From a virus (taxonomy: Duplodnaviria > Caudoviricetes): a DNA stretch of 64,000 bases. The notes beneath the pieces are model-generated. The model had not been told where the DNA came from. It saw nothing but the letters and a program-made list of their open reading frames with translations, and ran no database searches. The stretch's first letter is position 1. Each line of letters opens with the position of its first letter. The translations under genes were made by a program, and so were the position numbers. Location of the stretch: the IMG/VR virus record IMGVR_UViG_3300020399_000003, positions 9,994-73,993 of that record. One strand, 5' to 3'. Of the stretch, positions 11,069-55,058 are shown piece after piece.

Positions 11069-11225
11069 TCTACAAGAAGCACTACTAATAGTGAGTAAAC
11101 TATTAAATGATTACTTAAACGATCCTAATATTTCAGTAACCAAAGAACAAGAACAAGCTGTACTATTAATTAGAGATATAGCTGAGGGTAACGGTTGGAG
11201 TATTCAGAATGAATTCCGGGATTAG
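11061..11225 (+). CDS. Small hypothetical protein (54 aa)
   Basis: Overlaps the previous stop; converges on the vRNAP stop. Confidence 0.5.
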   Translation: MINLQEALLIVSKLLNDYLNDPNISVTKEQEQAVLLIRDIAEGNGWSIQNEFRD

Positions 11226-42052: not shown

Positions 42053-42607
42053 TTATTCTCCCATAGAATGATCATGTTTTATACCTCTAATCTGGATAGT
42101 TAACCGATTATCTACAGCTGATTCACTAATAGGAGTAATTAAATGTCTTTCACAGTTATCAAAAATAACTAATCTACCAAATTGAGGCTTAACTACATGT
42201 TCTTTATTGTCATTATCAAGCCAAACTAAAAATCCACCCCAATCAATATTCCAAACGGTATTAAGATATAATGTCGCACTGAAACTATACTTTATATCAT
42301 CATGCATAATTAGATGACTTAATGGTTCCCATTTATAAAAAGTATAAGTTATTGTAAAGGTAGGTTTTATTTGAACAATAGGAGCTAAATATTGTTCTAA
42401 ATCTGCGTGAAGTTGCTGGCACCAAATATCCCTATTCCAGATACCCTGTAATTCTATTATACTAGGTGCTGTTCCCCACTTAACTTGTCTCCAATCGTCA
42501 TTAGGTGCATGCATATCATCCAATATATCGATTGCTGTTTGTGGTGTTAGCACATTTTCATACAGGAGTGTCATTTTTAACCTGTTGAATTTGTTGAACT
42601 TTGCCAT
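42053..42607 (-). CDS. 2OG-Fe(II) oxygenase, prolyl-4-hydroxylase-like
   Basis: MHDD, WNIDWGG, HLITPI, RLTIQ. Confidence 0.85.
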   Translation of the reverse strand: MAKFNKFNRLKMTLLYENVLTPQTAIDILDDMHAPNDDWRQVKWGTAPSIIELQGIWNRDIWCQQLHADLEQYLAPIVQIKPTFTITYTFYKWEPLSHLIMHDDIKYSFSATLYLNTVWNIDWGGFLVWLDNDNKEHVVKPQFGRLVIFDNCERHLITPISESAVDNRLTIQIRGIKHDHSMGE

Positions 42608-42947
42608 CCTTTAAAACATATTCATCACCTGCTGTAAGATAATGTACAAATACACCATCAAAACTAGGATGGTAATGGGGGTGAGTTCTCTCGCCATTAA
42701 CCTGATAATGACCAGATACCGTAGCTTCTATATTTAGAGATTTAGCATCCGTAATATTATAAGCATTTGTTAAGTAATACCGAATAACTTCATTCGCAAT
42801 CTTTTCATATTCTTTTACAAAATCAAATGTTGGGTCTAGAACAGCTTTATTTACAATTAGTTCCATCAATTTTATCTTTATATCTTCAGGGGTGTTTAAC
42901 TGCATTTTGCCAATCTTTGTGGTCCAATTTTTAGTTATTTTCATCAT
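42558..42947 (-). CDS. N-terminal half of a TIGR02466-like 2OG-Fe(II) oxygenase
   Basis: THPHYHPSFDGVFVHYLTAGDEY; lacks the DPRP/WHE half. Confidence 0.65.
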   Translation of the reverse strand: MMKITKNWTTKIGKMQLNTPEDIKIKLMELIVNKAVLDPTFDFVKEYEKIANEVIRYYLTNAYNITDAKSLNIEATVSGHYQVNGERTHPHYHPSFDGVFVHYLTAGDEYVLKDGKVQQIQQVKNDTPV

Positions 42948-43779
42948 AGATTGTCGATAAAGGTTTTACTATCGTAGAATTTGTTTTTGTCAGTATTCTG
43001 TAATTAATAACGATTGATACTCTTATTCCACTTCCTGTAAACGTATTAGACTCATGCCAAATACAGGCAGGATGCATCAGTAGAGTTCCAGTTACAGGAC
43101 TCCATGCAAGCGCTTTATTACAATAAGGATAATTTTGTGAGGGTCTTGGATCTTGAAGTATTAAATTACCAGAACCATCAGTATTACTAGTTTTTAAATT
43201 ATTATCTAAATCAACAGGATACCTATTATCATCTAGTACATATTCATTACCCGCTGTTAAATAGTAAATTAGCACACCATCAAATCCATGATGGTAGTGA
43301 GGGTAGGTTCTACCACCGTAAACTTGATGATTACCAAATGATCTAGCTTCTATATCAAGATCATCTATATTCGTAATACCGTACGCTTCAGTAATATAGT
43401 CTCTAATTATTTTATTTGAGATTTTCTCAAATTCTCTAATTGCGTGTGCATTAGGATCATCGTTAGGGTAAATAAAAATGTTTGAACCATCATTTGCTAT
43501 TACCTGTATAAGTTGTTTTCTTAATTCTTCACCAATTTCTATTTTATCCTCGCCTAATGGTGTTGTCCAATGATCTGTAATTTCCATTGAAATTGGATGA
43601 ATACCTTGTGCATACGGATCATTAACCTCCTTAGATTGATTTCTTTCAATCATAAAGGTTGGATCAGCCGTAGTAAACAAGACTTCATCACATTCAATTT
43701 CAACTGCTTTATGTAGATCAGAAGTAGCACCAGGGCAATTGATAGCCCCATTCGGAGGTATTACAAAGTAATCCTTCAC
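42931..43779 (-). CDS. 2OG-Fe(II) oxygenase (TIGR02466-like)
   Basis: TYPHYHH, LILQDPRP, WHESN, GIRVSIVIN. Confidence 0.82.
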   Translation of the reverse strand: MKDYFVIPPNGAINCPGATSDLHKAVEIECDEVLFTTADPTFMIERNQSKEVNDPYAQGIHPISMEITDHWTTPLGEDKIEIGEELRKQLIQVIANDGSNIFIYPNDDPNAHAIREFEKISNKIIRDYITEAYGITNIDDLDIEARSFGNHQVYGGRTYPHYHHGFDGVLIYYLTAGNEYVLDDNRYPVDLDNNLKTSNTDGSGNLILQDPRPSQNYPYCNKALAWSPVTGTLLMHPACIWHESNTFTGSGIRVSIVINYRILTKTNSTIVKPLSTIYDENN

Positions 43780-43988
43780 TGTCCTGGCTGGATTAACTCG
43801 GTTAGTACTCGATAATTCACAACAATTGCAACCCGTATTCCATTTCCTAAAAATGGATTTGATTCATGCCAGACATAGGAAGGATGGCATATTGCCATTC
43901 CAGACTTCGGTGTAATAACATGAGTCTTTTCGTTAATAGGATAATTAACTACTGGTCTAGGGTCTTGAAGTATTAGTTCTCCTGTCAC
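43776..43988 (-). CDS. C-terminal half of a TIGR02466-like oxygenase
   Basis: GTG start overlapping the rSAM stop; LILQDPRP, WHESNPF, GIRVAIVVN. Confidence 0.65.
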   Translation of the reverse strand: MTGELILQDPRPVVNYPINEKTHVITPKSGMAICHPSYVWHESNPFLGNGIRVAIVVNYRVLTELIQPGQ

Positions 43989-45325
43989 TTGTCCTCCTTA
44001 GCATATTTTAGGGTCTCAAACCCAAATACATCTTTGCGATATTCTGGTAATGTTTCATGTTCAATTCTATGAAGAACATGCCCGGTTATCTCAAATAGGG
44101 AAGCTGCAAGCCACACTGCGTTGTCACTATAGGAGTTGTCGCATGACAATTCCCACTCTTTACTACCTCCTGACAAGAATAAACAAGAACCTTGACACAA
44201 ATGAAGTACTGGGCAAGTTCTACATTCTTCCCTATCAGACCAATGCGTTCCTGATTTTATATCAACAGATTCCAAATCATCCATTGTCCCAATCTTATGT
44301 GAAACACCGCCTGGGTTATTACCAGACACCGTTACGTTTTGGCAAGTAGTCACGTTTCCATTCAGATCAACTGCCATTGTATTTGGTGAATCCATTCCGC
44401 ATTTTTGCATTAAAGAACTAGAAGGTTGTTGGGATTTTAAAGAACCAATAAAATTCTCAATCTTTTGATTCAAAATAACAAAATGTTTTATTTTCTTATC
44501 CATAATTTCCCTAAAAGCTTTTCTTCTATAGCCAATATGTTCTTCTTCCGATTGCCATGACATAGAAGCTCCGCCTTCATCATATGCATCAACAGTTCCA
44601 CCTTCACCAATTCCAATCATCCCAAAGTTATTTATCATCCACCTTTGAATTTCTGCCCTACTATCGTTATCTTTATGAATCATAGAATTAACAGAAAATT
44701 TATTTCTTGGAACTAATAGATTCCTTAATTTGAATAACCATTTCTTTTGTTCTGGATCATCCAGTGGATCTGGACCTCTTGTTTTTTGTCCTATAGCATC
44801 ATGTGAAATAGATACACCAAAATCATATTTCAGGATAAAATCAATTATTTCTTGATTTATAAGAGAACCATTTGTAATAACACTATAGGTTGCATCAGGA
44901 TATTTAGCATGTAGTTGTTCTGTAACTAATTTCATTTTATTAAAATACAAGAATGGTTCACCACCCCACATTTCAAAGTGTAATTCTTCTCCTACAGTAA
45001 CTGTGTCAAATTTCTTTATAAAACTTTCAATTTCATTAGCATCTACATCTTCTGGCGAATATGTATCATCTGTATTTCTAGGTACAAATCTTTGTGAGCA
45101 ATATTCGCAGGAATAATTGCATTTTAAACCAAGTTGTATTTTAATTTTTGTAAGATCACGTTTCCCTGCATCCATCTTATGAAATGGAATCCAATCTTTA
45201 AATGTGTCCTGCGGTACTACAATATCACCAGATTCGTAACGTAATTCAGACGTTTCATTATCGTAATCCAATACCATCTCGTTTCCGCTTTCTGGTGATT
45301 CTAAATGAAATTTAAATTTTGCCAT
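43985..45325 (-). CDS. Radical SAM enzyme with SPASM-type C-terminal domain
   Basis: CNYSCEYC, WGGEPF, ITNGSL, VSISHD, CGMD...GNVTTCQ, CRTCPVLHLCQGSC. Confidence 0.93.
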   Translation of the reverse strand: MAKFKFHLESPESGNEMVLDYDNETSELRYESGDIVVPQDTFKDWIPFHKMDAGKRDLTKIKIQLGLKCNYSCEYCSQRFVPRNTDDTYSPEDVDANEIESFIKKFDTVTVGEELHFEMWGGEPFLYFNKMKLVTEQLHAKYPDATYSVITNGSLINQEIIDFILKYDFGVSISHDAIGQKTRGPDPLDDPEQKKWLFKLRNLLVPRNKFSVNSMIHKDNDSRAEIQRWMINNFGMIGIGEGGTVDAYDEGGASMSWQSEEEHIGYRRKAFREIMDKKIKHFVILNQKIENFIGSLKSQQPSSSLMQKCGMDSPNTMAVDLNGNVTTCQNVTVSGNNPGGVSHKIGTMDDLESVDIKSGTHWSDREECRTCPVLHLCQGSCLFLSGGSKEWELSCDNSYSDNAVWLAASLFEITGHVLHRIEHETLPEYRKDVFGFETLKYAKEDK

Positions 45326-45326
45326 T

Positions 45327-46106
45327 TTATATCCTAATTAGTGGATCAATAGATTTACTTGTACTAATATTAAAATTAACAGTAATAGCTACACGAATAC
45401 CAGAACCCATAAATGGATTTGACTCATGCCATAAATAGCCTGGATGTAATAACGTCAATCCTACTTCTGGTTTAAGATGCCAAGCCTTTCTATTATACGG
45501 ATATGATATAGCAGGTCTAGGATCTAAAAGAATTAAATTACCCGGTTCTTCAAATTCTTTTGGATGTGTACTAGGAGCTGTAGGAGCAAATGATACAATT
45601 TTTACAGCTTTAGGTGCATCAATTAAAAAATCTTCCCAATTATTATTTTCCATACAATCTACATCAATACTAATCTCATCACCCAACGTAAGATATGTAA
45701 TTGCTACGCCATCATAGCCATGATGGTAGTGCGGATAAGTACGTTGTCCCCATGATTGAACATTACCAAAACATTTTGCTTCTATATCCATATCTGCCAC
45801 ATTTTCAACATTCCACGCATTAGCAACATAATAACGAATTAATTCAGCTATATTTTTCTTATATAGATCAACAAATTCATTATCGGTAGAATTAGCAAAT
45901 AAATTATAATAATGTTTATTGCTATATCCATTCTCCATTGGATGAACATGTTGATATGTTTGTTTAACAATACATTTAATTAAACCAATTCGTACTTCGT
46001 CTGGCAAATCAAAACTAATTAATCCAAGGCTACTTGACCAATCATCCCGCAGTTCAAACGAATTATTTAAAGGATGATCTATATTATTTAAATAATGGTC
46101 ATTCAT
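45327..46106 (-). CDS. 2OG-Fe(II) oxygenase (TIGR02466-like)
   Basis: TYPHYHH, LLDPRP, WHESNPF, GIRVAIT. Confidence 0.82.
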   Translation of the reverse strand: MNDHYLNNIDHPLNNSFELRDDWSSSLGLISFDLPDEVRIGLIKCIVKQTYQHVHPMENGYSNKHYYNLFANSTDNEFVDLYKKNIAELIRYYVANAWNVENVADMDIEAKCFGNVQSWGQRTYPHYHHGYDGVAITYLTLGDEISIDVDCMENNNWEDFLIDAPKAVKIVSFAPTAPSTHPKEFEEPGNLILLDPRPAISYPYNRKAWHLKPEVGLTLLHPGYLWHESNPFMGSGIRVAITVNFNISTSKSIDPLIRI

Positions 46107-46894
46107 TCTAATGGTTTCAATAGTTCATTGTAACCATGTGAAACAATTCTAAAATTAACTACAATACATACTCTTATTCCTTCACCAAGCCACGGATTTG
46201 TTTCATGCCATACATAATTGGGATGAACAATTGTTAACCCTACTCTTGGGCTAATAGTATGTACTTTTTCCCAATACGGATAGCTTATTGCAGGTCTTGG
46301 ATCTTGAAAAATTACTGTGTGACCTCCATGCCTAGCAGATTTTTCAAAATCTTTATTCATTTGTTCTTCTAAAGGTTTATCTTCATCACCCATTTTAAGA
46401 TAATGAACTAAAACACCATTAATATCTTGATGATAATGAGGATAAGTTCTAGCTCCCGGCTGTTGAACATTACCGAAACATCTTCCTTCAAGCTGCATAT
46501 CATCTGCTTGTTGAACTCCCCAACCCTTACGAATGTAATAACGGATCATCTGGCAAGCTATTTCCTTAAATCCTAAAATTGAATCTTTTGCAAAAGGAAA
46601 TTCATTAACAGAATCAAAAAGATTATAGTGAGTAGTAGCATAAAATCCTTTTGAATGAGCCATTCCATAAAATTCAGGATTACTTTCTTTAAGTTCAGAT
46701 AATGCTGTTTCTTTGTGTATTAAAACCTTTACTAGATCTTTCCGCATTTTTTCTGGCAGACTTGTATCAGACTCCATAAAAGGGGTAGTAAATTTCTGAT
46801 CAATCTTTGCAAAATTATCTAAAGGATGACTAGTCGTATCTAGCGGTTCATCTTTTAAGTTTTTGTAAAACTCAACATGTTCTGCTGTTTTCAT
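46103..46894 (-). CDS. 2OG-Fe(II) oxygenase (TIGR02466-like)
   Basis: TYPHYHQ, FQDPRP, WHETNPW, GIRVCIV. Confidence 0.82.
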   Translation of the reverse strand: MKTAEHVEFYKNLKDEPLDTTSHPLDNFAKIDQKFTTPFMESDTSLPEKMRKDLVKVLIHKETALSELKESNPEFYGMAHSKGFYATTHYNLFDSVNEFPFAKDSILGFKEIACQMIRYYIRKGWGVQQADDMQLEGRCFGNVQQPGARTYPHYHQDINGVLVHYLKMGDEDKPLEEQMNKDFEKSARHGGHTVIFQDPRPAISYPYWEKVHTISPRVGLTIVHPNYVWHETNPWLGEGIRVCIVVNFRIVSHGYNELLKPLE

Positions 46895-47649
46895 GATATC
46901 CTCATGGATTCTTCATCCGTGTATACATTCAAATTAGTTTGTACACTCCATCTTTGTTCAGTACCCCGATATGGATATACAGCATGATCTAACCATTTCG
47001 GAAAAATGTAATAGTCCCCTACAGTTGGTATAATAAAACTAGTAGTTTCTGGACTATAATCATCTAGCGTACCTATATATTGGCTTTGCCATCTAAATTG
47101 TAACAGTCCGTCTGTTAAAAATCTTCCATTATTGTCAGGATTTTCTCGTGATTTAAAAGCATCTTGTCTAATATGTTCTGGTACTTTAATGTAACAGATT
47201 GTTGCAAGGCCAGTTCTTGCCTTAGTATAATGAGCATGTATAGGATTGTAATCATTCTGATTCATTTTTACAGACCAACAACTATCAATAGTTATTGTCC
47301 TATGCTCGTTCTCAACATTTACATTCGGTCTACCCATAAAATTTTGGTATGCGATACCTCCTTCTATAATTTCACTACAAAAGTTTCTCATTAATGGGTG
47401 TTCAATATCTAAGTTTGATTGATCTCCAGATATATTAGCCGCTAATTCAGAATTTGCTGAATTGTCATTAACATTTGCAATATATTTATGTACATCCGTA
47501 ATAATATCTTTAGACATTCTACCTCTTAATACACTGATAGCATGAAATGATGTCATTTCTTTTGTTTCAGTAATTGGTGTAGTTACTGTAGTAGCTTGAT
47601 GCCCCTTATTATCTATTTTCATATTAGATAAGTTGGAAGAATATCCCAA
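46891..47649 (-). CDS. 2OG-Fe(II) oxygenase (divergent member)
   Basis: YNPIHAH, IFPKWLDHAVYPY, RWSVQTN. Confidence 0.8.
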   Translation of the reverse strand: MGYSSNLSNMKIDNKGHQATTVTTPITETKEMTSFHAISVLRGRMSKDIITDVHKYIANVNDNSANSELAANISGDQSNLDIEHPLMRNFCSEIIEGGIAYQNFMGRPNVNVENEHRTITIDSCWSVKMNQNDYNPIHAHYTKARTGLATICYIKVPEHIRQDAFKSRENPDNNGRFLTDGLLQFRWQSQYIGTLDDYSPETTSFIIPTVGDYYIFPKWLDHAVYPYRGTEQRWSVQTNLNVYTDEESMRIS

Positions 47650-48428
47650 TTCCTATTTTCGATATTAAAGTTAATAACAATAGCAACGCGGATACCAGCT
47701 TTTGTATGTGTTTGGGTTTCGTGCCAGACATAACCAGGATGAATGAGAGTCATTCCTACCTCTGGTTTAAATGTTTTTGCTTTGTTATTGTATGGCATTT
47801 TAATGGCAGGCCTTGGATCTAGCATAATCAAGTCTCCACTAAAATCAGAATTTATAGCCTCAGGATCTTTATCATCTATAGCTTTTCGACCACCCGCGGA
47901 GCGGGCTGTGATTTGTACTAAATGGTCATTGGTTGACATAGTCCAATCATCAGCATCACTAAATAACGGGTAATTAAATTCCTCTCCAACAGTTAAATAG
48001 TGAACCAAAACACCATCCCATGCATGATGGAAATGAGGGGCAGTTCTTCTACCAAATGGTCTTTGTACATTACCAAAGCACCGAGCTTTAATTGCTGCAT
48101 CCTCATCTAGCCCCCATGCTTTATGAATGTAAGTCCTAATGATTTTTGAAGAGATTTTTTCAAATTCTGCTAAAGCATCTATTTCATTAGCGTCTAATAC
48201 TGTTTTCTGATCGTCATAATCAAATAGATTATAAATTTTATCGTCAAACTTTTTTAAGGCTTCAGATGTATTATTTACTTTATTATAGGTGTGTTCTGTA
48301 AATACAATACCCTGTTTAGTTAAGATAACTATTAAAATTTGTCTTAACTCTTCGGGTAAATAAATATTGATACTACCAATGGGAGTTGTCCATTCGTGTT
48401 CAACATTTAGCTTGTCATGTAGGTCCAC
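47619..48428 (-). CDS. 2OG-Fe(II) oxygenase (TIGR02466-like)
   Basis: TAPHFHH, MLDPRP, WHETQ, GIRVAIVIN; GTG start overlapping the upstream stop. Confidence 0.82.
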   Translation of the reverse strand: MDLHDKLNVEHEWTTPIGSINIYLPEELRQILIVILTKQGIVFTEHTYNKVNNTSEALKKFDDKIYNLFDYDDQKTVLDANEIDALAEFEKISSKIIRTYIHKAWGLDEDAAIKARCFGNVQRPFGRRTAPHFHHAWDGVLVHYLTVGEEFNYPLFSDADDWTMSTNDHLVQITARSAGGRKAIDDKDPEAINSDFSGDLIMLDPRPAIKMPYNNKAKTFKPEVGMTLIHPGYVWHETQTHTKAGIRVAIVINFNIENRNWDILPTYLI

Positions 48429-49423
48429 TAGGCTACCGTATAATTAACATCCTGGACACCAGTCAGATTTCTAAAACCAATCTTCACCTTAAATGTATCA
48501 CCAGATTCTAATCCTAGGGCTGTTACTTTAAAAGTACCAAGACCATCAGTTATAGGTACTCGAGTTTTAGGTAAATACCCAGCAGTTGATTCTAAATAAG
48601 CTTCAGAAGTTCTCGCAATTAGTGCACCATCTTTATCTACCATTTTAAAAGCAACAGTATCGGTACCATCTGCATCAATACTAGTACCGCCAGAAGTAAC
48701 CGTAAACGTAGGAAAGGCTTCATTCATTTCACCTAAATAGTTGTAACCATCGCCAGAAGTCTTAAACAATGCTTTTTCATCTGTTCCAATTAGCCAATCA
48801 TTCATTATATTTGTACTAAAACCACAGCCACGATTATATTTCATCGTAATTGAACAATCTGTGAAATTGTCTGTGTTAAATGATTTATAGATAAAAAGAG
48901 CAGCAGGAGCATTTTGCTGACGAACTGATCGCAAAGGATGGGCCTTACTATAGTGTGTATTTGTTAGTGAATTGTAACTAGCACTCGCTGAGAAGTCTGG
49001 TTTTATGCCTATCACCCAACAAGCAACATCTGATTTTTCACCAGATGCAATTGATGGATCAGTTGGATCAACCCAGGAGAACCCTGTATTTCTAAACCAT
49101 GTATCTTTTAATTTTTCTGTATAGGTGTCACGAATATTAGCAGGTATCTGCGGTAAAAATGTTTCACCAGTAACCATAGTTCCATGAAGTATTCCCGTTG
49201 GTAACTTGTCGTGGAAAACTCCACTCATAGCTGCTGGAAATTCTCCCAAAGCAGGAGCTGCTGGCATATGTAAACTTTGTTCTGGAAAAGGTCTATTAGG
49301 CATTGCACCGTTAAACTCATCTTCGTCAATGGGAGACCAGACTTTCAAACATACAAAATCATCATTAACTAATAGTTCTAAGTGGACTCCCATACTTAAA
49401 CTATCATAAAGTTTTTTAAACAT
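48428..49423 (-). CDS. Hypothetical protein with C-terminal Ig-like (Big-1-like) beta sandwich
   Basis: C-terminal SIDADGTDTVAFKMVD...GYLPKTRVPITDGLGTFKVTALGL...VKIGF. Confidence 0.5.
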   Translation of the reverse strand: MFKKLYDSLSMGVHLELLVNDDFVCLKVWSPIDEDEFNGAMPNRPFPEQSLHMPAAPALGEFPAAMSGVFHDKLPTGILHGTMVTGETFLPQIPANIRDTYTEKLKDTWFRNTGFSWVDPTDPSIASGEKSDVACWVIGIKPDFSASASYNSLTNTHYSKAHPLRSVRQQNAPAALFIYKSFNTDNFTDCSITMKYNRGCGFSTNIMNDWLIGTDEKALFKTSGDGYNYLGEMNEAFPTFTVTSGGTSIDADGTDTVAFKMVDKDGALIARTSEAYLESTAGYLPKTRVPITDGLGTFKVTALGLESGDTFKVKIGFRNLTGVQDVNYTVA

Positions 49424-49435
49424 TTTGTTCCTTTC

Positions 49436-49966
49436 TTAGCAATTACAAGCACAGGCACAAGCACATGCCCCACCAAAACAAGCCGGACCGTTAGTTGTGC
49501 AATTAGGATGATTGTTGCAGTTATTTGGAGAATTATTACAATTAGTCTTACCATTACCATTTGTTGCGCAATTGGGATGATTATTACAATTACTAGAGGA
49601 GTTGTTACAATTAGTAAATCCTCCTCCATTAACTGAACAGTTAGGCATACCATTCCCATTAGTTGTACAATTTGCATGCCCAGAACCATTGGTTGTACAG
49701 TTAGCATGATTAGTACAGTTAGTTTGCCAGGTATTATCTCCTCTTAAATACTTTCCAGCACTAGGAGAGGCTCCCATTCGTGCAGGAACTAATGTACCAC
49801 TACTAATGTTATCCGCATTAGTGGTATCTGTTGTAGCTGAAGCAACCAGAGCAGGTTTGTTTAATAAGGTATTCCAATCTGATGCAGGGGCATTGTCTAA
49901 TGCTCCTCCAATAACATCACCGCCACTATCTAAAAGTCGTGCTATTTCATCTGCTCTAGTAGTCAT
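49436..49966 (-). CDS. Tail-fibre-like protein with Asn-Cys repeat C-terminus (copy 4)
   Basis: LLNKP, TTNADNISSGTL, YLRGDNTW, then 15 Cys; ends CACACNC. Confidence 0.75.
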   Translation of the reverse strand: MTTRADEIARLLDSGGDVIGGALDNAPASDWNTLLNKPALVASATTDTTNADNISSGTLVPARMGASPSAGKYLRGDNTWQTNCTNHANCTTNGSGHANCTTNGNGMPNCSVNGGGFTNCNNSSSNCNNHPNCATNGNGKTNCNNSPNNCNNHPNCTTNGPACFGGACACACACNC

Positions 49967-49978
49967 TAATTAACCTCT

Positions 49979-50488
49979 TTAACAATTGCAGGCACAAGCA
50001 GCGCAAGCACCATTATGTGTACAATTGGGATAGCTAGTACAGTTGCCGCTAGAATTATTACAGTTAGTTTTACCATTGCCATTCGTAGCGCAATTACTAT
50101 GATTACTACAATTACTAGAAGTATTATTACAGTTAGTTTTGCCATTACCATTAGTTGCACAATTAGTATGACCACTACCATTAACGGCACAGTTTGCCAT
50201 ACCGTTACCATTCGTTGTACAATTTGCATGATTGGTACAATTAGTCTGCCAAGTTCCATCGCCTCGTAAGTATTTTCCAGCACTAGCAGAACCGCCTACC
50301 CGTGCAACATTTAATGTACCTGTGCTGATATTATCTGCATTAGTGGTATCAGTAGTTGCACTAGCCACAAGTGCTGGCTTATTTAAAAGGGTATTCCAGT
50401 CACTAGCAGGCATATTATCTAAAGCACCTACAATAACATCTCCACCGCTATCTAAAAGCCTAGCTATCTCTGATGCTCTAGTTGTCAT
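49979..50488 (-). CDS. Tail-fibre-like Asn-Cys repeat protein (copy 3)
   Basis: Same leader; 14 Cys; ends CAACACNC. Confidence 0.75.
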   Translation of the reverse strand: MTTRASEIARLLDSGGDVIVGALDNMPASDWNTLLNKPALVASATTDTTNADNISTGTLNVARVGGSASAGKYLRGDGTWQTNCTNHANCTTNGNGMANCAVNGSGHTNCATNGNGKTNCNNTSSNCSNHSNCATNGNGKTNCNNSSGNCTSYPNCTHNGACAACACNC

Positions 50489-50500
50489 TAATTAATCTCC

Positions 50501-51010
50501 TCAACAATTACAAGCACAAGCTGCCGGAGCACCATTTGTTGTACAATTAGGGTGATTCGTGCAGTTACCGCTAGAGTTATTACAGTTGGTATAAGTATTG
50601 CCATTAGTGGCACAATTAGCATGATTGGTGCAGTTACTAGAAGAGTTATTGCAATTAGTTTTACCATTGCCGTTTGTTGTACAATTAGCATAACCATTTC
50701 CGTTAGTCGCACAATTAGCGTGACCACCGCCATTTGTGGCGCAATTCCCGGTATTAGTACAATTGGTTTGCCATGTTCCATCTCCCCTTAAATATTTCCC
50801 TGAAGTTGGAGACCCACCTAATCGAGCAGCATCTAACGTACCTGAGGTTATATTATCTGCATTAGTAGTATCTGTCGTAGCAGACGCAACTAATGCAGGT
50901 TTATTTAGCAAAGTAGTCCAATCTGATGGAGGAGCATTATCTAATGCACTACTCTCCACATCGCCACCACTATCTAGAAGATTTGCTATTTCTGTTGATT
51001 TAGTTGTCAT
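50501..51010 (-). CDS. Tail-fibre-like Asn-Cys repeat protein (copy 2)
   Basis: Same leader; 13 Cys; ends CACNC. Confidence 0.75.
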   Translation of the reverse strand: MTTKSTEIANLLDSGGDVESSALDNAPPSDWTTLLNKPALVASATTDTTNADNITSGTLDAARLGGSPTSGKYLRGDGTWQTNCTNTGNCATNGGGHANCATNGNGYANCTTNGNGKTNCNNSSSNCTNHANCATNGNTYTNCNNSSGNCTNHPNCTTNGAPAACACNC

Positions 51011-51022
51011 TAATTTAGTTCC

Positions 51023-51613
51023 TTAACAATTACAAGCGCAAACACCTGGAGTCAAAACAACCGCTGTTCCAACAACACTTAATGTGCCGCCATAAGTATT
51101 ATTTGCAGATCCACTTGCGGATGTAAGCGTCCCCGCACAATTAGTACAGTTAGTGTGACTGCTAGTTCCAGAACAATTAGCACAATTAGCCATACCATTT
51201 CCATTTGTTGCACAATTCCCAAAACTATCTGTGCCTGAACAATTAGTACAATTACCATGATTCGTACAATTAGTAGTCCACGCCCCGTCTCCTCGAAGAT
51301 AATTTCCTGAACCACCAGTGCCACTTCCCATTCTAGCAACATTTAATGTTCCGGTACTAATGTTGTCAGCCGAAGTAGTATCTGTAGTAGCAGAAGCCAC
51401 TAAACCAGCAACTTGAGCATTCGGAAGATCTACAATTCGTGCGTTAGGCAACGTTCCTGTATTAATATTACTAGCATCACGAGTATCTGTATCTGCATGA
51501 GCAGGTTTATTTAATAATGTCGTCCAATCAGAGGCAGGAACATTGTCTAAGCCAGCTGAGATAACATCCCCGTCTGCTTCTAGTAAGTTTGCGAGTTCTC
51601 TAGCTTTGCTCAT
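51023..51613 (-). CDS. Tail-fibre-like Asn-Cys repeat protein (copy 1, divergent)
   Basis: MSKARELANLL, duplicated NIxTGTLxxAR repeat, NCTNC motifs; 11 Cys; ends CACNC. Confidence 0.75.
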   Translation of the reverse strand: MSKARELANLLEADGDVISAGLDNVPASDWTTLLNKPAHADTDTRDASNINTGTLPNARIVDLPNAQVAGLVASATTDTTSADNISTGTLNVARMGSGTGGSGNYLRGDGAWTTNCTNHGNCTNCSGTDSFGNCATNGNGMANCANCSGTSSHTNCTNCAGTLTSASGSANNTYGGTLSVVGTAVVLTPGVCACNC

Positions 51614-51625
51614 TGTTTTATCCTT

Positions 51626-51982
51626 TTAGAAATTTATAAATTCCATTGTATCTAAAATAGTAGCCCCTGTTGCTAGTTCTATCGTAGTACCATTAGTAGC
51701 TTCAAAATCGTTAGCTGCACCATTTAATAATTTAACACCATTCATAAATACCTGTACTCGTCCTACAACATATACATGAGGAAAAGTTGTTTGACCTGCT
51801 GTAGGAACAACAATGGTTTCAGAATAGTCATCAGTTGCTGTTAATGTATGACCTCCTGCTGTTGAACCATCATGTACAACTAAAGTATCTTTATCAGTAT
51901 CTACAGTAACTTCACGAAGAGCTCCTGTAAATGTAGCATGCTGAGCAGTCGTTCCGCCTCTTAACTGTAGTTTTTTAGCCAT
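51626..51982 (-). CDS. Virion/tail protein with Mtd_N-like N-terminus
   Basis: LQLRGGTTAQHATFTGALREVTVDTDKDTLVVHDGSTAGG; C-terminus VQVFMNGVKL shared with the next ORF. Confidence 0.7.
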   Translation of the reverse strand: MAKKLQLRGGTTAQHATFTGALREVTVDTDKDTLVVHDGSTAGGHTLTATDDYSETIVVPTAGQTTFPHVYVVGRVQVFMNGVKLLNGAANDFEATNGTTIELATGATILDTMEFINF

Positions 51983-51991
51983 GATGTCCCT

Positions 51992-52273
51992 TTATAAATT
52001 TATAAATTCTAATCGGTCTGTTGTATCAACCCCAGTTGCTAAAACTACAGTTGTTCCATTGGTAGCTTCAAAATCATTGGATGCACCTACTACTAATTTA
52101 ACTCCATTTAAATAAACTTGTACTCGCCCTACTGTGTATACATGATTAAATGTTACTTGTGCAGCCGTACCGGGAGTAACTTCAGTTTCAGAAATTGTAA
52201 CATTTTTAGAAGTTAGAGGATCTACTAAAAGACCAGAACTTCTGCCTGTATTGTTATCAACTATTCCACTCAT
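51992..52273 (-). CDS. Small virion/tail protein, paralog of the C-terminus of 51626..51982
   Basis: HVYTVGRVQVYLNGVKL...NDFEATNGTTVVLATG. Confidence 0.65.
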   Translation of the reverse strand: MSGIVDNNTGRSSGLLVDPLTSKNVTISETEVTPGTAAQVTFNHVYTVGRVQVYLNGVKLVVGASNDFEATNGTTVVLATGVDTTDRLEFINL

Positions 52274-52283
52274 AGTTTATTCC

Positions 52284-52613
52284 TTATAATGTCTGATCAA
52301 GATATGAAACACATACATCAATGTCTGATGCACTTGCAGTAATAATTGATAAATGATCTGATGCTTCCATTACAAATTTACTAGTATGCTCAAACGTTTG
52401 TTTAGCTCCTATTGCTTGATCAAAATAAATATATGTATCTGCTCCAGAGCCTCCGTCATCAATCAATAATTTGAATGTTTCTGCCGCATCACCTGTCTCA
52501 CAAATGGTTACACTTAAAACCGTACAAGTATGCCCACTTGCAACAGTAAGTAATGCTTGAACGGAAGAAGCATCACCCCTAAATGTTGCTAGTTTTAAAA
52601 CTTCACTTGCCAT
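52284..52613 (-). CDS. Small beta-rich virion protein
   Basis: ORF in the tail block. Confidence 0.55.
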   Translation of the reverse strand: MASEVLKLATFRGDASSVQALLTVASGHTCTVLSVTICETGDAAETFKLLIDDGGSGADTYIYFDQAIGAKQTFEHTSKFVMEASDHLSIITASASDIDVCVSYLDQTL

Positions 52614-52622
52614 AACTTTCTC

Positions 52623-55058
52623 CTAAAATCCAAGGACTAGAGCTTTGCCCGTACTTGTTATTGTTGGGTTCATAATTGTTGTTGATGAGGTTATGTTGTA
52701 TCCTAAAATATCTAAATCACCAGCAAGTTGAGGAGTAGCATCAGCTGATACCTCTATAGAAACAGTTCCAAAGGATAATTGACCAGCACCGTCAGTCTTC
52801 ATATATTGATCTAGTAAACCATCCGCTTGCGGGTGTTTTAACCCATCAATAATAACATCACCTGAACCATTAGGAGTAATCGCTATATCACCATTAGACG
52901 CACTGATTATCGAATTGCTATTTACATCTAAATCTCCACCTAATTCAGGACTTGCATCTTCTACTATATTTCCAAGACCAGGAGCAATACCAGTCCAAGC
53001 ACTACCCGTATAATATTTAAGAAGGTTGTTGGTACTGTCGTACCAAAGATCTCCTGCTGAAGGAGAACCTGGGGAAGAAGCATTTATAGAATATTCATCA
53101 CTGTATCTATTAATAGAGGATTCATTAAGTGCAGCAGTTGTAATATTTCCTGCTATGCCTGCACAAGTCGTAACATTAGCACTAATTGCTGCTAAAGAAT
53201 TCATGTCAGTTACGTTCTGAGCCGTACCCAAGACGTTCATATCATTTACTACATCTGCGGTGCCCAAAATATTCATATCGTTTACAAAATCAGCCGAGGC
53301 TATAACATTTAAATCACTAACGAAATCAGCTGTTGCTACGATATTTAAGTCACTGACAAAATCAGCGGTTCCAACAATTGCTAGGTCTGCTATTGTTGCC
53401 GCATTCCCCAAGAGTCCAATTTCAGTTGATACACCGGCTACACTTGTAACATCACTAGATATTCCCGCTACGGTAGTCGTATTTGCTGAAATGCCTGCAA
53501 CTGTTGTAACATTTGCAGCAACTGCTGCTACGCTTGTTACATTAGCAGCAATCCCGGATACTATTCCAATTTCAGTAGTGTCTCCAGCAACGACTCCAAT
53601 TTCTGTGGTATCCCCAGCTACAGTTGTGACGTTAGCAGCGATTCCAGCAACGGTAGTAATATTTGCTGAATTAGAATTAACGGCATTAATATTTGTTGAA
53701 TTAGAGTTTACGCCTGATACAGCAGAAGAAATAGCGTTAACTCCTGACACGGCAGTAGAAATTCCTGCTACTGATGTAACATTGCTAGAAATTCCTGCAA
53801 CTGTTGTGACATTACCGGATATTCCTGCCACTGTTGTAATATCAGCACTCGCTCCTGCCAATGCACTAATATTATTAGTAGGAGTAATTTGTCCTGCTAC
53901 TGTATCAATATCAGCAATATTATCTGCACAAGATGTTATATCTCCATTACCAGTAGAACTATCTAATGCATCAGCAATGCTTCCTAGATCCTCGTTAAAA
54001 ACAACATCTCCTGCAACGACATTAATATTAAGCTGATCAGATGCACTTGGCGCAGTTGCTTGCCACACTGTACCAAAACTACGAAGTTCATTACTGGTCG
54101 TATTAAAGTAAAGATCACCTGCATCGTTATCAGTGCTAGGCTCAGTTGCGGAAATCCGATATCTATTTGCAAAATTATCTACATTAGTTATATTCGAGGC
54201 TACCGTAGCTATATTAGCCGCAGCAGTAGTTTGAGCTACCGTAGTAACATTTGCAGCTATCCCAGCCACAGTCGTAACATTACCTGAAATAGGCGCTACT
54301 ATATTTACGTTAGATATATTAGTTCCAACTGTATCTACATTCGTTATGGAGTTTGCTACTGTATCAATTTCTGATGTGGCTTCATTTAGATCATTTGCAA
54401 CAGTTTCAATTTCAGAAACTGCTTCATTTAAATCATTAGCTGTAGTAATAATTTTAGCTATATCTGATGCACAAATATTGATGTTAGCTTGGTTTGCTTG
54501 AACTGCATTAATATTCGTTTGATCCGCAGTTGTAGGTGTAGTGCGTAACCAGGAAGTATTCCCAAGGTCATAGACCATAAGTACATTATTAGTCGTATTG
54601 AAATAGGCTGTTCCATCTAATAACGCATCTCCGTCATTATTAAGAGTAGGATCTGAAGCTTTATCCCCTAACCAGCGATCATCAAAATTATCATAACTCG
54701 TAGCGGCATTAGTTTCAGATGTAGCAGCAGCAGCTGCGCTGCTGGCTGCGTTAGCTACTGTCTCTGCTAATGCATCCGTTAACATAGCTGTTGTTACACG
54801 TAATTCACAACGATCATCTAAAACAAAAGTACTTGCTGTTGTTCCTTCTTGTGCACGAAGAACAGTAAGTGTATTTGAGCCAATAGCTTCACATTTAATA
54901 ACTTCAGTAGCAGTAGCACTAACTAAAGTTAAATAACAATAATCTCCAACTCCTAAAGTAGGAAATACTGAAGCATCAGTTACAAGAATACTTGTAGCAG
55001 CAGCAGATATAGGCCCTGGTAATGTTGTAGTTGCATTATTTGAATATTTAACTCCCAC
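52623..55058 (-). CDS. Long tail fibre / fibritin-like protein
   Basis: Decad repeats (NVTTVAGIxx), 12-mer and 14-mer repeats, three GDLY/WY knob modules. Confidence 0.75.
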   Translation of the reverse strand: MGVKYSNNATTTLPGPISAAATSILVTDASVFPTLGVGDYCYLTLVSATATEVIKCEAIGSNTLTVLRAQEGTTASTFVLDDRCELRVTTAMLTDALAETVANAASSAAAAATSETNAATSYDNFDDRWLGDKASDPTLNNDGDALLDGTAYFNTTNNVLMVYDLGNTSWLRTTPTTADQTNINAVQANQANINICASDIAKIITTANDLNEAVSEIETVANDLNEATSEIDTVANSITNVDTVGTNISNVNIVAPISGNVTTVAGIAANVTTVAQTTAAANIATVASNITNVDNFANRYRISATEPSTDNDAGDLYFNTTSNELRSFGTVWQATAPSASDQLNINVVAGDVVFNEDLGSIADALDSSTGNGDITSCADNIADIDTVAGQITPTNNISALAGASADITTVAGISGNVTTVAGISSNVTSVAGISTAVSGVNAISSAVSGVNSNSTNINAVNSNSANITTVAGIAANVTTVAGDTTEIGVVAGDTTEIGIVSGIAANVTSVAAVAANVTTVAGISANTTTVAGISSDVTSVAGVSTEIGLLGNAATIADLAIVGTADFVSDLNIVATADFVSDLNVIASADFVNDMNILGTADVVNDMNVLGTAQNVTDMNSLAAISANVTTCAGIAGNITTAALNESSINRYSDEYSINASSPGSPSAGDLWYDSTNNLLKYYTGSAWTGIAPGLGNIVEDASPELGGDLDVNSNSIISASNGDIAITPNGSGDVIIDGLKHPQADGLLDQYMKTDGAGQLSFGTVSIEVSADATPQLAGDLDILGYNITSSTTIMNPTITSTGKALVLGF

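What the first reader, a model, noticed from the sequence alone, without database searches (positions are those of the whole stretch)
42053..51613. Candidate RiPP-like system for modifying virion fibres: four Asn-Cys repeat tail proteins, a radical SAM/SPASM enzyme and a battery of 2OG-Fe(II) oxygenases
Seen: one co-oriented, gap-free operon directly after the tail genes. It encodes four paralogs with a shared tail-fibre-like leader and an Asn-Cys repeat C-terminus, an Ig-like protein, four oxygenases, an rSAM/SPASM enzyme, and further oxygenases (six intact plus two halves in total). Known: rSAM/SPASM enzymes install Cys thioether crosslinks in RiPPs (sactipeptides, ranthipeptides, including Cys-to-Asn beta-thioethers), and 2OG oxygenases such as FIH and AspH beta-hydroxylate Asn. 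Inference: the phage matures its own structural fibres by crosslinking or hydroxylating the NC repeats, with the constant N-terminus acting as leader and virion anchor. This could build a rigid, metal-binding or receptor-mimicking tip. I cannot confirm that it is undescribed.
Basis: partly seen in the sequence, partly recalled or inferred. Interest (0 to 1): 0.93.

Follow-up and report, generated by a model that had tools for sequence, protein, structure and literature searches.

The report
Radical-SAM cassette for cysteine-tagged phage fibres
This marine phage, like hundreds of unrelated phages, pairs tail-fibre proteins that end in a short run of alternating cysteines with a radical-SAM enzyme of the peptide cross-linking kind, so it very probably modifies the tips of its host-binding fibres by a reaction I found described in no paper.

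Summary
Window 42053-51613 (minus strand) is one tightly packed gene row. It holds four paralogous fibre-like proteins that all end in C-A-C-N-C, a two-domain Ig-like protein, six intact 2OG-type oxygenases plus two fragments, and one radical SAM/SPASM enzyme.

The important result lies outside the window. The enzyme belongs to a large phage and prophage family (at least 539 viral contigs and 306 bacterial genome contigs). In 107 of 110 distinct loci with enough upstream DNA, a same-strand gene nearby carries an alternating-Cys run such as NCNCNC, NCNCDCNCC or CACACNC; in 99 of them it ends the protein. The background is 7 of 5350 ORFs. The reverse also holds: 15 of 15 fibre-end tags found by DNA pattern alone have the enzyme downstream.

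The usual cassette is tagged fibre, Ig-like protein, usually one oxygenase, then rSAM. This window has the largest oxygenase set I saw.

A controlled complex model places the last nine residues of the tag in the enzyme's active-site barrel (score 0.64, best control 0.00).

The most likely chemistry is thioether cross-linking of the fibre tip. This is inferred, not shown.

The scan has already noted the same kind of cassette in other genomes. I found no paper describing it.

The parts
51023..51613 (-). NC1, 196-aa fibre-like protein. It has the conserved N-terminal domain and NC-rich middle, and ends GVCACNC.
   Evidence: Marine homologues all end CACNC.
50501..51010 (-). NC2, 169-aa paralog with eleven [N/D]-C dipeptides; ends AACACNC. 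Its residues 161-169 dock into the rSAM in the complex model.
49979..50488 (-). NC3, 169-aa paralog (78% identical to NC2); ends AACACNC.
49436..49966 (-). NC4, 176-aa paralog; ends CACACACNC.
48428..49423 (-). c0, a 331-aa two-domain beta-sandwich protein with a conserved Ig-like (Big_1/invasin-like) C-terminal domain and a variable N-terminal part. It is the commonest companion of the tagged fibre. No catalytic motif is conserved.
   Evidence: It is homologous to RSP15 ORF047. The family is present in 89 loci. See alignment A3, the model (pLDDT about 90 for residues 240-331), the fold hits and the atlas lead.
47619..48428 (-). oxA, 269-aa PF13759-type oxygenase with an H-x-H...H motif.
46891..47649 (-). 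oxB, 252-aa divergent PF13759/TIGR02466-type oxygenase.
46103..46894 (-). oxC, 263-aa PF13759-type oxygenase. This is the type most often found just upstream of the rSAM in related phages. It was modelled with pLDDT 88.
45327..46106 (-). oxD, 259-aa PF13759-type oxygenase.
43985..45325 (-). Radical SAM/SPASM enzyme, 446 aa. The CxxxCxxC motif is at C69/C73/C76. The seven SPASM cysteines are C309, C328, C368, C371, C377, C381 and C395.
43776..43988 (-). 70-aa fragment matching only the C-terminal third of the PF13759-type oxygenases (47-56% identity).
42931..43779 (-). oxE, 282-aa PF13759-type oxygenase.
42558..42947 (-). 129-aa fragment matching only the N-terminal half of the PF13759-type oxygenases (44% identical to oxE). 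It carries HPH.
42053..42607 (-). oxF, 184-aa PF13640-type 2OG-Fe(II) oxygenase (H-D-D motif). It is a distant relative of the second oxygenase type seen in other cassettes.
51626..55058 (-). Context: an 811-aa tail fibre and three small fibre-type proteins (one with an Mtd_N domain) directly upstream of the cassette.

Best explanation
The region is one copy, expanded in this phage, of a widespread and apparently undescribed phage cassette that matures tail-fibre tips.

The fibre proteins carry a short tag of alternating cysteines at or within a few residues of the C-terminus ([N/D/A]-C repeated 3-8 times; here C-A-C-N-C). The radical SAM/SPASM enzyme takes this tag into its active-site barrel.

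Most likely, a tag cysteine binds the open iron of the first auxiliary cluster. The 5'-deoxyadenosyl radical then abstracts a hydrogen from a neighbouring residue (Asn, Asp or the terminal residue), and a Cys-S-to-carbon thioether forms. Repeated along the tag, this would give a reduction-proof staple at the distal end of the fibre. In a trimeric fibre the staple could form within or between chains.

The Ig-like protein encoded right after the fibre is non-catalytic. I read it as a fibre-tip partner or chaperone.

The 2OG-type oxygenases are optional tailoring enzymes tied to particular tag endings. This phage has four tagged fibres and the largest oxygenase set seen.

What is shown: the gene set, its conservation, and the two-way coupling of tag and enzyme. 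What is supported by a model only: docking of the tag. What is inferred: thioether chemistry, the roles of the Ig-like protein and the oxygenases, and the benefit to the virion.
For: Coupling of tag and enzyme:
- rSAM homologues at 41-43% identity sit after tail-fibre genes in the unrelated cultured phages RSP15, JWF and Achromobacter phage 2-1.
- The family is large: 237 representative clusters at E<1e-30, at least 539 viral contigs and 306 genome contigs.
- Of 110 distinct loci with at least 3 kb upstream, 99 have a same-strand ORF ending in C.C.C and 8 more have the run internally. Four of those 8 are directly followed by a self-cleaving Hint domain. Only 3 loci have none. The background is 7 of 5350 ORFs and 0 of 1858 same-strand ORFs.
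- Reverse tests: three contig sets chosen by fibre homology alone all carry the rSAM. All 15 in-frame C-terminal CNCNCNC tags found by DNA pattern, with at least 5 kb downstream, have the rSAM.
- Tagged proteins elsewhere score as tail fibres in PHROGs.

Enzyme type:
- It is a full SPASM enzyme. Its nearest named families and structures are protein or peptide maturases: anSME, PapB, QhpD, CteB and 8vpo.
- It has only seven SPASM cysteines and lacks the extra auxiliary-cluster Cys of anSME, like CteB.

Complex model: score 0.64, best control 0.00. That mark was reached by 58 of 80 solved complexes and 2 of 110 mismatched pairs. The runs agree in at least 6% of contacts, and the partner's pLDDT is at least 28. 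The interface joins tag residues 161-169 to enzyme residues next to C76, C309, C328 and C381.

Precedents:
- CrpC installs ranthionine cross-links on a Cys-rich protein (PMC13692751).
- PapB accepts Cys-Xn-Asp with n = 0-6 (PMC9413430) and can link a Cys to the C-terminal residue (PMC12373016).

Oxygenases and tag:
- Adjacent Cys-Cys in the tag occurs only where an oxygenase is present (45 loci against 0 of 27).
- The PF13640-type oxygenase goes with a CCG ending (19/4/82/0). In independent pairs this goes the same way 5-6 times and never the other way (median p 0.031).
Against: - No chemistry was measured. The type of modification is inferred from family likeness and tag composition.
- The spacer residue is not fixed (Ala in 11%), and in this window the tag has only one Asn. 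Cys-to-Asn links therefore cannot be the whole story.
- The complex model may pass from memory of solved SPASM-peptide complexes (CteB-CteA, anSME-peptide). One of its three runs failed (0.03). The tag's own fold is uncertain. The calibration did not include ligands or my own alignments.
- The window's own NC proteins match no Pfam, PHROG or NCBIfam family. Their place in the virion rests on position, on the YLRGDGTW-type fibre motif and on tagged relatives.
- RSP15 has only a weak tag (NCQCGN).
- The oxygenase-to-tag link rests on few independent pairs, and this window has a PF13640-type oxygenase without a CCG ending.
Confidence: 0.6

Rival explanations
1. The alternating-Cys tag is mainly a metal or iron-sulfur binding site at the threefold axis of a trimeric fibre. 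This would be a cysteine counterpart of the His-x-His iron sites of the T4 long tail fibre. The rSAM would then be needed only indirectly, or would build a thioether-caged metal site.
For: Alternate residues of a beta-strand face the same side, so three chains would bring 9-24 thiols together (inference from tag geometry). The biological role of the CrpA precedent is also suspected to be metal binding (PMC13692751).
Against: A metal site alone needs no dedicated SPASM enzyme, yet tag and enzyme are coupled both ways. The model puts the tag inside the active-site barrel. No trimer model was made.
Confidence: 0.12
2. The enzyme works like the anaerobic sulfatase-maturating enzyme. It oxidises tag cysteines to formylglycine, giving reactive aldehydes at the fibre tip.
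For: anSME is the best-scoring named NCBIfam model (71.6 bits) and the second-best solved structure.
Against: The score is far below the family cutoff of 349. The tags lack the C/S-x-P/A-x-R sulfatase motif. The family lacks the extra auxiliary-cluster cysteine of anSME.
Confidence: 0.08
3. One reading: a RiPP-like system in which the shared N-terminus is the leader, the internal Asn-Cys repeats are the core, and the oxygenases beta-hydroxylate Asn.
For: The four paralogs share an N-terminal domain and carry many NC dipeptides. Enzymes making Cys-Asn beta-thioethers, and Asn hydroxylases, are known (general knowledge).
Against: The N-terminal domain is not conserved across the fibres served by this enzyme family. 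No RRE/PqqD domain was detected. The modelled contact is the C-terminal tag. Oxygenases are absent from 27 of 105 cassettes, and their number does not follow the N/D-C count (rho 0.14, p 0.16). Their fold neighbours are prolyl hydroxylases.
Confidence: 0.1
4. The rSAM and the oxygenases act on something other than the fibre: the Ig-like protein, a host surface molecule, or a metabolite. On this reading the tag is merely a co-inherited fibre feature.
For: The Ig-like protein is nearly as constant a neighbour as the tag (89 loci). No biochemical data exist.
Against: The Ig-like family has no conserved Cys or other candidate target residue; its only invariant positions are two glycines. It is replaced by other proteins in about 20 loci while the tag stays. 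Docking of the tag is supported against controls.
Confidence: 0.07

Closest known systems
CrpC/CrpA of Methanococcus voltae (TIGR04463 family; Dieter et al. 2026, PMC13692751)
   Same: A SPASM radical SAM enzyme acts on a Cys-rich protein rather than a short peptide, encoded next to it. Thioether (ranthionine) cross-links were shown by mass spectrometry.
   Different: The window's enzyme scores 38 bits against a 525-bit cutoff for that family. CrpC has an RRE and uses an N-terminal leader, and its motif is C-x-x-Q/D in 17-residue repeats. It is archaeal, with no virus context. Here the target is a C-terminal alternating-Cys tag on phage fibres.
PapB/PapA (freyrasin) ranthipeptide system, NF047865
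   Same: A SPASM enzyme links Cys sulfur to a carbon of Asp/Glu. It tolerates Cys-Xn-Asp with n = 0-6 and can use the C-terminal residue as acceptor (PMC9413430, PMC12373016). The tags here are N/D-C repeats at the C-terminus.
   Different: The score is 62 bits against a cutoff of 340. PapA is a short leader-containing peptide made by bacteria as a secreted product. Here the substrate is a structural virion protein, and Asn is the commonest spacer rather than Asp.
CteB/CteA (SCIFF, thermocellin), PDB 5WGG/5WHY
   Same: The SPASM fold and a three-Cys first auxiliary cluster whose open site binds the substrate cysteine. The family here also lacks a fourth Cys at that site.
   Different: CteB has an N-terminal RRE and a 45-residue precursor. 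Similarity is low (65 bits for the profile). That the site is open in the phage enzyme is my inference.
QhpD/QhpC (quinohemoprotein amine dehydrogenase gamma subunit)
   Same: A SPASM enzyme installs several Cys-to-Asp/Glu thioethers inside a protein subunit (general knowledge). The TIGR03906 model gives a weak hit (53 bits).
   Different: The cutoff is 453 bits. That system is periplasmic enzyme maturation, not a virion part.
Anaerobic sulfatase-maturating enzyme (TIGR03942; PDB 4K36-4K39)
   Same: It is the best-scoring named model. It acts on whole proteins and is a SPASM enzyme.
   Different: The score is 71.6 bits against 349. The sulfatase motif is absent from the tags, and the auxiliary cluster has an extra Cys ligand that the phage family lacks.
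C-terminal self-cleaving chaperone domains of phage fibres (Peptidase S74 type)
   Same: They sit at the same place, the extreme C-terminus of fibres, and are thought to secure fibre assembly. One marine paralog (P0006) carries such a domain instead of the tag.
   Different: Those domains act in cis and are removed. Here a separate enzyme would modify a retained tag. The analogy is functional only and is inferred.

Membership tests
Radical SAM superfamily (PF04055) | CxxxCxxC cluster motif and a Pfam score above the gathering cutoff | tested here: met
   The score is 39.8 bits against 29.5. C69, C73 and C76 are invariant in 50 homologues.
SPASM domain (TIGR04085) | Seven-Cys motif CX9-15GX4C ... 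CX2CX5CX3C ... C, and a model score above the cutoff | tested here: met
   The score is 36.9 bits against 27. C309-x13-G-x4-C328, C368-x2-C371-x5-C377-x3-C381 and C395 are conserved.
PapB-family ranthipeptide maturase (NF047865) | Equivalog score of at least 340 bits | tested here: not met
   The score is 62.3 bits.
Anaerobic sulfatase maturase (TIGR03942) | Equivalog score of at least 349 bits, a substrate motif C/S-x-P/A-x-R, and a fully Cys-ligated first auxiliary cluster | tested here: not met
   The score is 71.6 bits. No such motif occurs in 113 tags. The extra Cys of anSME aligns to non-Cys positions.
TIGR04463 (CrpC-type maturase of Cys-rich proteins) | Equivalog score of at least 525 bits | tested here: not met
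   The score is 38.1 bits.
RiPP system in the strict sense | Short precursor with a leader bound by an RRE, and a released peptide product | tested here: not met
   The substrates are 95-686-aa fibre proteins with unrelated bodies. No PqqD/RRE hit was found. The modelled contact is the C-terminal tag. No protease or exporter lies in the row.
Thioether-forming (sacti/ranthi) synthase | Loss of 2 Da per Cys-carbon link, and loss of alkylatable thiols | not testable with these tools
   This needs mass spectrometry. Only indirect support exists.
2OG-Fe(II) oxygenase, PF13759 type | Pfam score of at least 27 bits and a double-stranded beta-helix fold | tested here: met
   oxB scores 50.8, oxC 36.4 and oxD 29.1. 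oxA (25.6) and oxE (26.0) fall just below, but they are 34-37% identical to oxC and oxD. The oxC model has pLDDT 88, and its best folds are 2rg4 and 3bvc, then prolyl hydroxylases.
2OG-Fe(II) oxygenase, PF13759 type | Canonical H-x-D/E...H iron triad and 2OG dependence | tested here: inconclusive
   The conserved motif is H-x-H...H, with an Arg about 10 residues after the last His. The cofactor cannot be tested here.
2OG-Fe(II) oxygenase, PF13640 type (oxF) | Pfam score of at least 27 bits and an H-x-D motif | tested here: met
   The score is 39.9 bits. H-D-D lies at residue 102. There is a weak match to a prolyl hydroxylase, 4iw3.
Phage tail fibre | Homology to known fibre families, and presence in the virion | tested here: inconclusive
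   Tagged proteins of other loci hit tail-fibre PHROGs strongly. The window's four NC proteins hit no family. They lie after an 811-aa fibre and share the LRGDGT motif with a tagged fibre of L066. No virion proteomics is available.

The most novel reading that the evidence does not exclude
Phages of many lineages share a portable fibre-tip chemistry kit. A C-terminal alternating-Cys tag is covalently stapled by a dedicated radical SAM enzyme, within or between the three chains and possibly caging a metal. Optional oxygenases, whose presence follows the 'dialect' of the tag ending, then tailor it further. This would be a new, enzyme-made class of structure at the receptor-binding end of virions and a new determinant of fibre stability or host range. 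The present phage would be its most elaborate form, with four tagged fibres and eight oxygenase genes or fragments.
Probability: 0.3. Interest if true: 0.9.

Novelty: new variant of a known kind. Interest (0 to 1): 0.8.

Why it matters
Tail fibres decide which bacteria a phage can infect, yet enzymatic post-translational chemistry on them is almost unknown. Here a radical-SAM enzyme class known from peptide antibiotics, and very recently from one archaeal protein, is coupled to fibre ends in hundreds of phages and prophages. These include N4-like and SU10-like podoviruses, myoviruses, siphoviruses, and prophages of Limnohabitans, Burkholderia and others.

If the modification is real, it matters in four ways:
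- It adds a new step to virion assembly.
- It may explain fibre stability in harsh or reducing settings.
- It gives a short, portable tag-plus-enzyme pair of possible use for stapling proteins.
- It must be taken into account when such fibres are expressed or engineered, because heterologous expression without the enzyme may give unmodified tips.

The system can be tested directly in cultured phages (Achromobacter phage JWF, Ralstonia phage RSP15) and in cultured lysogens.

Tried and rejected
- Megablast of the whole region and tblastn of NC2 against 50,697 phage records found nothing.
- Profile comparison of the window's oxygenases with RSP15 ORF046 and JWF gp029 showed no relation. Those neighbours remain unassigned.
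- The sequence search of solved structures with the oxygenase profile gave only two proteins of unknown function.
- The number of oxygenases does not follow the number of N/D-C dipeptides (rho 0.14, p 0.16). The weak link to total Cys (rho 0.37) is not corrected for kinship.
- The link between oxygenase presence and Cys-Cys in the tag did not reach significance in independent pairs (p 0.25).
- The promoter and terminator scan was uninformative: 52 promoter-like sites against 61 expected, and no convincing internal terminator.
- The contig of the paralog that bears a chaperone domain instead of the tag still carries tagged paralogs, so it could not separate the two solutions.
- Literature searches for phage, tail fibre, radical SAM/SPASM, NCNCNC, JWF and RSP15 found no description of the cassette.
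- A first DNA pattern had too few fixed bases and was replaced.
- I considered and rejected reading the two oxygenase fragments as a recent break of one gene. They are only 44-56% identical to any intact copy and lie in swapped order around an intact gene.


Full report
**What is in the window**

One search shows an unbroken row of minus-strand genes from 51613 down to 42053, with 1-12 nt gaps or short overlaps.
- Four paralogs (196, 169, 169 and 176 aa) share an N-terminal domain and an Asn/Cys-rich middle, and all end in C-A-C-N-C.
- Then come a 331-aa protein and four oxygenase genes.
- Next are a 446-aa radical SAM enzyme, a 70-aa fragment equal to an oxygenase C-terminus, an intact oxygenase, a 129-aa fragment equal to an oxygenase N-terminus, and a last oxygenase of another type.

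Pfam and NCBIfam confirm Radical_SAM plus a SPASM domain, PF13759 for five oxygenases (three above the cutoff, two just under it) and PF13640 for the sixth.

The window is part of a 73,993-bp IMG/VR virus record with N4-like portal, capsid and primase genes and a 4506-aa ORF. An 811-aa tail fibre and small fibre-type proteins lie directly upstream.

**The enzyme points to the fibres**

A tblastn search of the rSAM against phage records found 41-43% identical proteins in Ralstonia phage RSP15, Achromobacter phage JWF and Achromobacter phage 2-1. These phages are unrelated to each other and to this one. In RSP15 and JWF, the two whose context I read, the gene follows tail-fibre genes.
- RSP15's fibre ends ...NTNCQCGN. 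It is followed by a homologue of the window's 331-aa protein.
- JWF's fibre carries NCNCDCNCNCSC, immediately followed by a Hint (self-cleaving) domain.

An exhaustive profile-free search shows the enzyme family is large, with 237 representative clusters at E<1e-30. A scan with an alignment of 50 members found at least 539 viral contigs and 306 contigs of bacterial genomes. The latter are mostly prophage regions of Limnohabitans, Burkholderiaceae, Polaromonas, Paraburkholderia, Ferrovibrio and others.

**Two-way coupling of tag and enzyme**

In the 160 best loci I called ORFs and looked for three cysteines at alternate positions. Among 110 distinct enzymes with at least 3 kb of upstream DNA:
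- 99 have a same-strand ORF, within 6.5 kb upstream or just downstream, whose last 8 residues include such a run.
- 8 more have the run internally. Four of these have it directly before a Hint domain, which would leave the run at the new C-terminus after self-cleavage.
- 3 have none: RSP15 with its weak tag, one frameshifted fibre and one rearranged contig.

Outside that zone, 7 of 5350 ORFs, and 0 of 1858 on the same strand, end this way.

In 113 distinct tagged proteins the run has 3-8 cysteines (mode 4). The spacer is Asn in 63%, Asp in 16% and Ala in 11%. The run is preceded by Asn in 88%. It ends exactly at the C-terminus in 58 proteins and within five residues in 104.

I ran two reverse tests.
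- Contigs chosen only through homology to the window's NC protein, on three different phage backbones, all carry the Ig-like gene, an oxygenase and the rSAM downstream.
- A DNA pattern for CNCNCNC scanned over the viral collection gave 15 in-frame, C-terminal tags in ORFs of at least 80 aa with at least 5 kb downstream. All 15 have the rSAM.

**The cassette**

I clustered the genes lying between tag and enzyme.
- The usual order is tagged fibre, then the Ig-like family (89 loci), then a PF13759-like oxygenase (69 loci), then the rSAM.
- Alternatives are an unassigned 230-aa family (JWF gp029 type, 15 loci) and a PF13640-type oxygenase (10 loci).
- Of 105 cassettes, 27 have no recognisable oxygenase, 49 have one, 15 two, 12 three, and one each four and five.
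- With six intact genes and two fragments, the window is the extreme case.

Tagged proteins of other loci are clear tail fibres by PHROGs. The window's own four match no family. They share the LRGDGT motif with a tagged fibre of L066 and sit in the fibre block.

**The parts**

The Ig-like protein was modelled at mean pLDDT 67.5, about 90 for residues 240-331. It matches only beta-sandwich accessory domains. Its family conserves the C-terminal Ig-like domain, varies in the N-terminal part and has no conserved catalytic residue. I read it as a fibre-tip partner or chaperone, by analogy with genes in the same position after other phage fibres. This is inference.

oxC was modelled at pLDDT 88. It is closest to two PF13759 proteins of unknown function and then to protein prolyl hydroxylases (PPHD with EF-Tu, PHD2, a viral collagen hydroxylase). 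It is not close to FIH or AspH. The conserved metal motif is H-x-H...H rather than H-x-D/E...H.

The four main paralogs are only 34-37% identical to each other, so they are old copies. The two fragments are 44-56% identical to intact copies.

**The enzyme and its likely chemistry**

The nearest named families are all protein or peptide maturases: anSME, PapB, QhpD, DynA and CcpM. All score far below their cutoffs, so the enzyme belongs to none of them. The nearest structures are 8vpo, anSME and CteB.

The SPASM domain has seven conserved cysteines. The extra cysteine that completes the first auxiliary cluster of anSME aligns to non-Cys positions, as in CteB. From published work on CteB, this suggests an open iron site that binds a substrate cysteine, which is the hallmark of thioether-forming enzymes. 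This step is my inference.

I made a complex model of the enzyme with the last 60 residues of NC2, SAM and three clusters.
- It scored 0.64 (runs 0.64, 0.70 and 0.03), with a best control of 0.00.
- That mark was reached by 58 of 80 solved complexes and 2 of 110 mismatched pairs. The counts hold only roughly here, because my own alignments and ligands were used.
- The runs agree in at least 6% of contacts, and the partner's pLDDT is at least 28.
- The confident interface is tag residues 161-169 against enzyme residues 77, 148-150, 170-172, 208-213, 238-246, 283-284, 308-309, 329 and 381. These lie beside the cluster ligands C76, C309, C328 and C381.
- Like complexes have been solved, so the pass may be from memory. 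It supports binding but does not show it.

Published precedents fit this reading.
- CrpC installs ranthionine links on a Cys-rich protein (PMC13692751).
- PapB accepts Cys-Xn-Asp with n = 0-6, and can link a Cys to the C-terminal residue (PMC9413430, PMC12373016).

The last point offers a reason why the tag must sit at the very end, and why some fibres free it with a Hint domain. That is a hypothesis.

**What the oxygenases do**

This remains open.
- They are optional.
- Their number does not follow the N/D-C count.
- Tag endings differ with the oxygenase set. Adjacent Cys-Cys occurs in 45 cassettes with oxygenases and in none of the 27 without.
- The PF13640 type goes with a ...CCG ending (19 with both, 4 with the oxygenase only, 0 with the ending only, 82 with neither). 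On the enzyme tree, 5-6 of 7 independent pairs go the same way and none the other (median p 0.031).
- This suggests that they act on the tag, but it is thin evidence. The window has a distant PF13640-type oxygenase and no CCG.

**Comparison and novelty**

The system works like the ranthipeptide and CrpC systems, but it fails every equivalog test and lacks a leader/RRE logic. It is a new family with a new kind of substrate: a terminal tag on virion fibres.

I found no paper that describes it. Only five records of three cultured phages in 50,697 carry the enzyme, which may explain why.

Earlier notes of this scan report the same kind of cassette in other genomes, with the same reading. The counts given here are my own.

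**Verdict**

The leader and Asn-hydroxylation details are not supported. The chemistry is still to be shown.

Noticed in passing
window 42558-43988: Two oxygenase fragments flank an intact paralog in swapped order: a 70-aa C-terminal piece at 43776-43988 and a 129-aa N-terminal piece at 42558-42947. They are only 44-56% identical to any intact copy. I read them as remnants of two further old paralogs rather than one recently split gene.
   Followed up: partly
window 11222-24742 (minus strand): A single 4506-aa ORF lies in a genome with N4-like portal, capsid and primase genes. It may be a giant virion protein of the N4 virion-RNA-polymerase kind. I did not analyse it.
   Followed up: no
L002:6787-8238 (JWF gp028); also L050, L122 and L142 (Burkholderia paludis MSh1 prophage): In these fibres the alternating-Cys run is followed at once by a Hint (intein-like) domain beginning C-F-P. 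Self-cleavage would expose the run as the new C-terminus, possibly through a thioester.
   Followed up: partly
P0006 on L170:713-1291 and L171:261-839: One marine paralog of the NC proteins lacks the CACNC tag. It ends instead in an S-D-E-R-L-K segment typical of the self-cleaving C-terminal chaperone domain of phage fibres. Tagged paralogs follow it on the same contig.
   Followed up: partly
L147:7482-7937, L152 (about 7543-7938), L146:3064-3753, L148:3025-3930: A third form of the system: small proteins with the pattern QCTNC...NCxNCD...WLQxNCNCACTYNC...YNCNCxC lie directly beside the rSAM. In L147 and L152 they follow a fibre that ends in a chaperone-type segment.
   Followed up: partly
window 45327-48428 and 42931-43779; alignments A1 and A5: The PF13759-type oxygenases conserve H-x-H...H rather than the usual H-x-D/E...H iron triad. 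Three-His sites are known from thiol dioxygenases, which raises the untested possibility that these enzymes oxidise the tag's thiols.
   Followed up: no
L025:2755-6516 and L027:2857-7343: Two cassettes carry five or six consecutive unassigned genes of 230-283 aa between the Ig-like gene and the rSAM. One of these families also occurs in L081; RSP15 ORF046, which has the same position, a similar length and a similar N-terminal sequence, was not compared with it directly. Their function is unknown.
   Followed up: no
L090 (contig CAXGWP010000012.1, labelled Nitrosomonadaceae MAG from a Tara sample): This contig carries the same cassette as viral contig L017, with a 68% identical rSAM and the same oxygenase layout. 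It is probably a phage contig binned into a bacterial MAG.
   Followed up: no
window 51626-52613: Three small proteins (118, 93 and 109 aa) lie between the 811-aa fibre and the cassette. The 118-aa and 93-aa ones share a C-terminal fibre-type domain, and the 118-aa one has an Mtd_N domain (major tropism determinant N-terminus). Relatives in other cassettes have longer versions.
   Followed up: no
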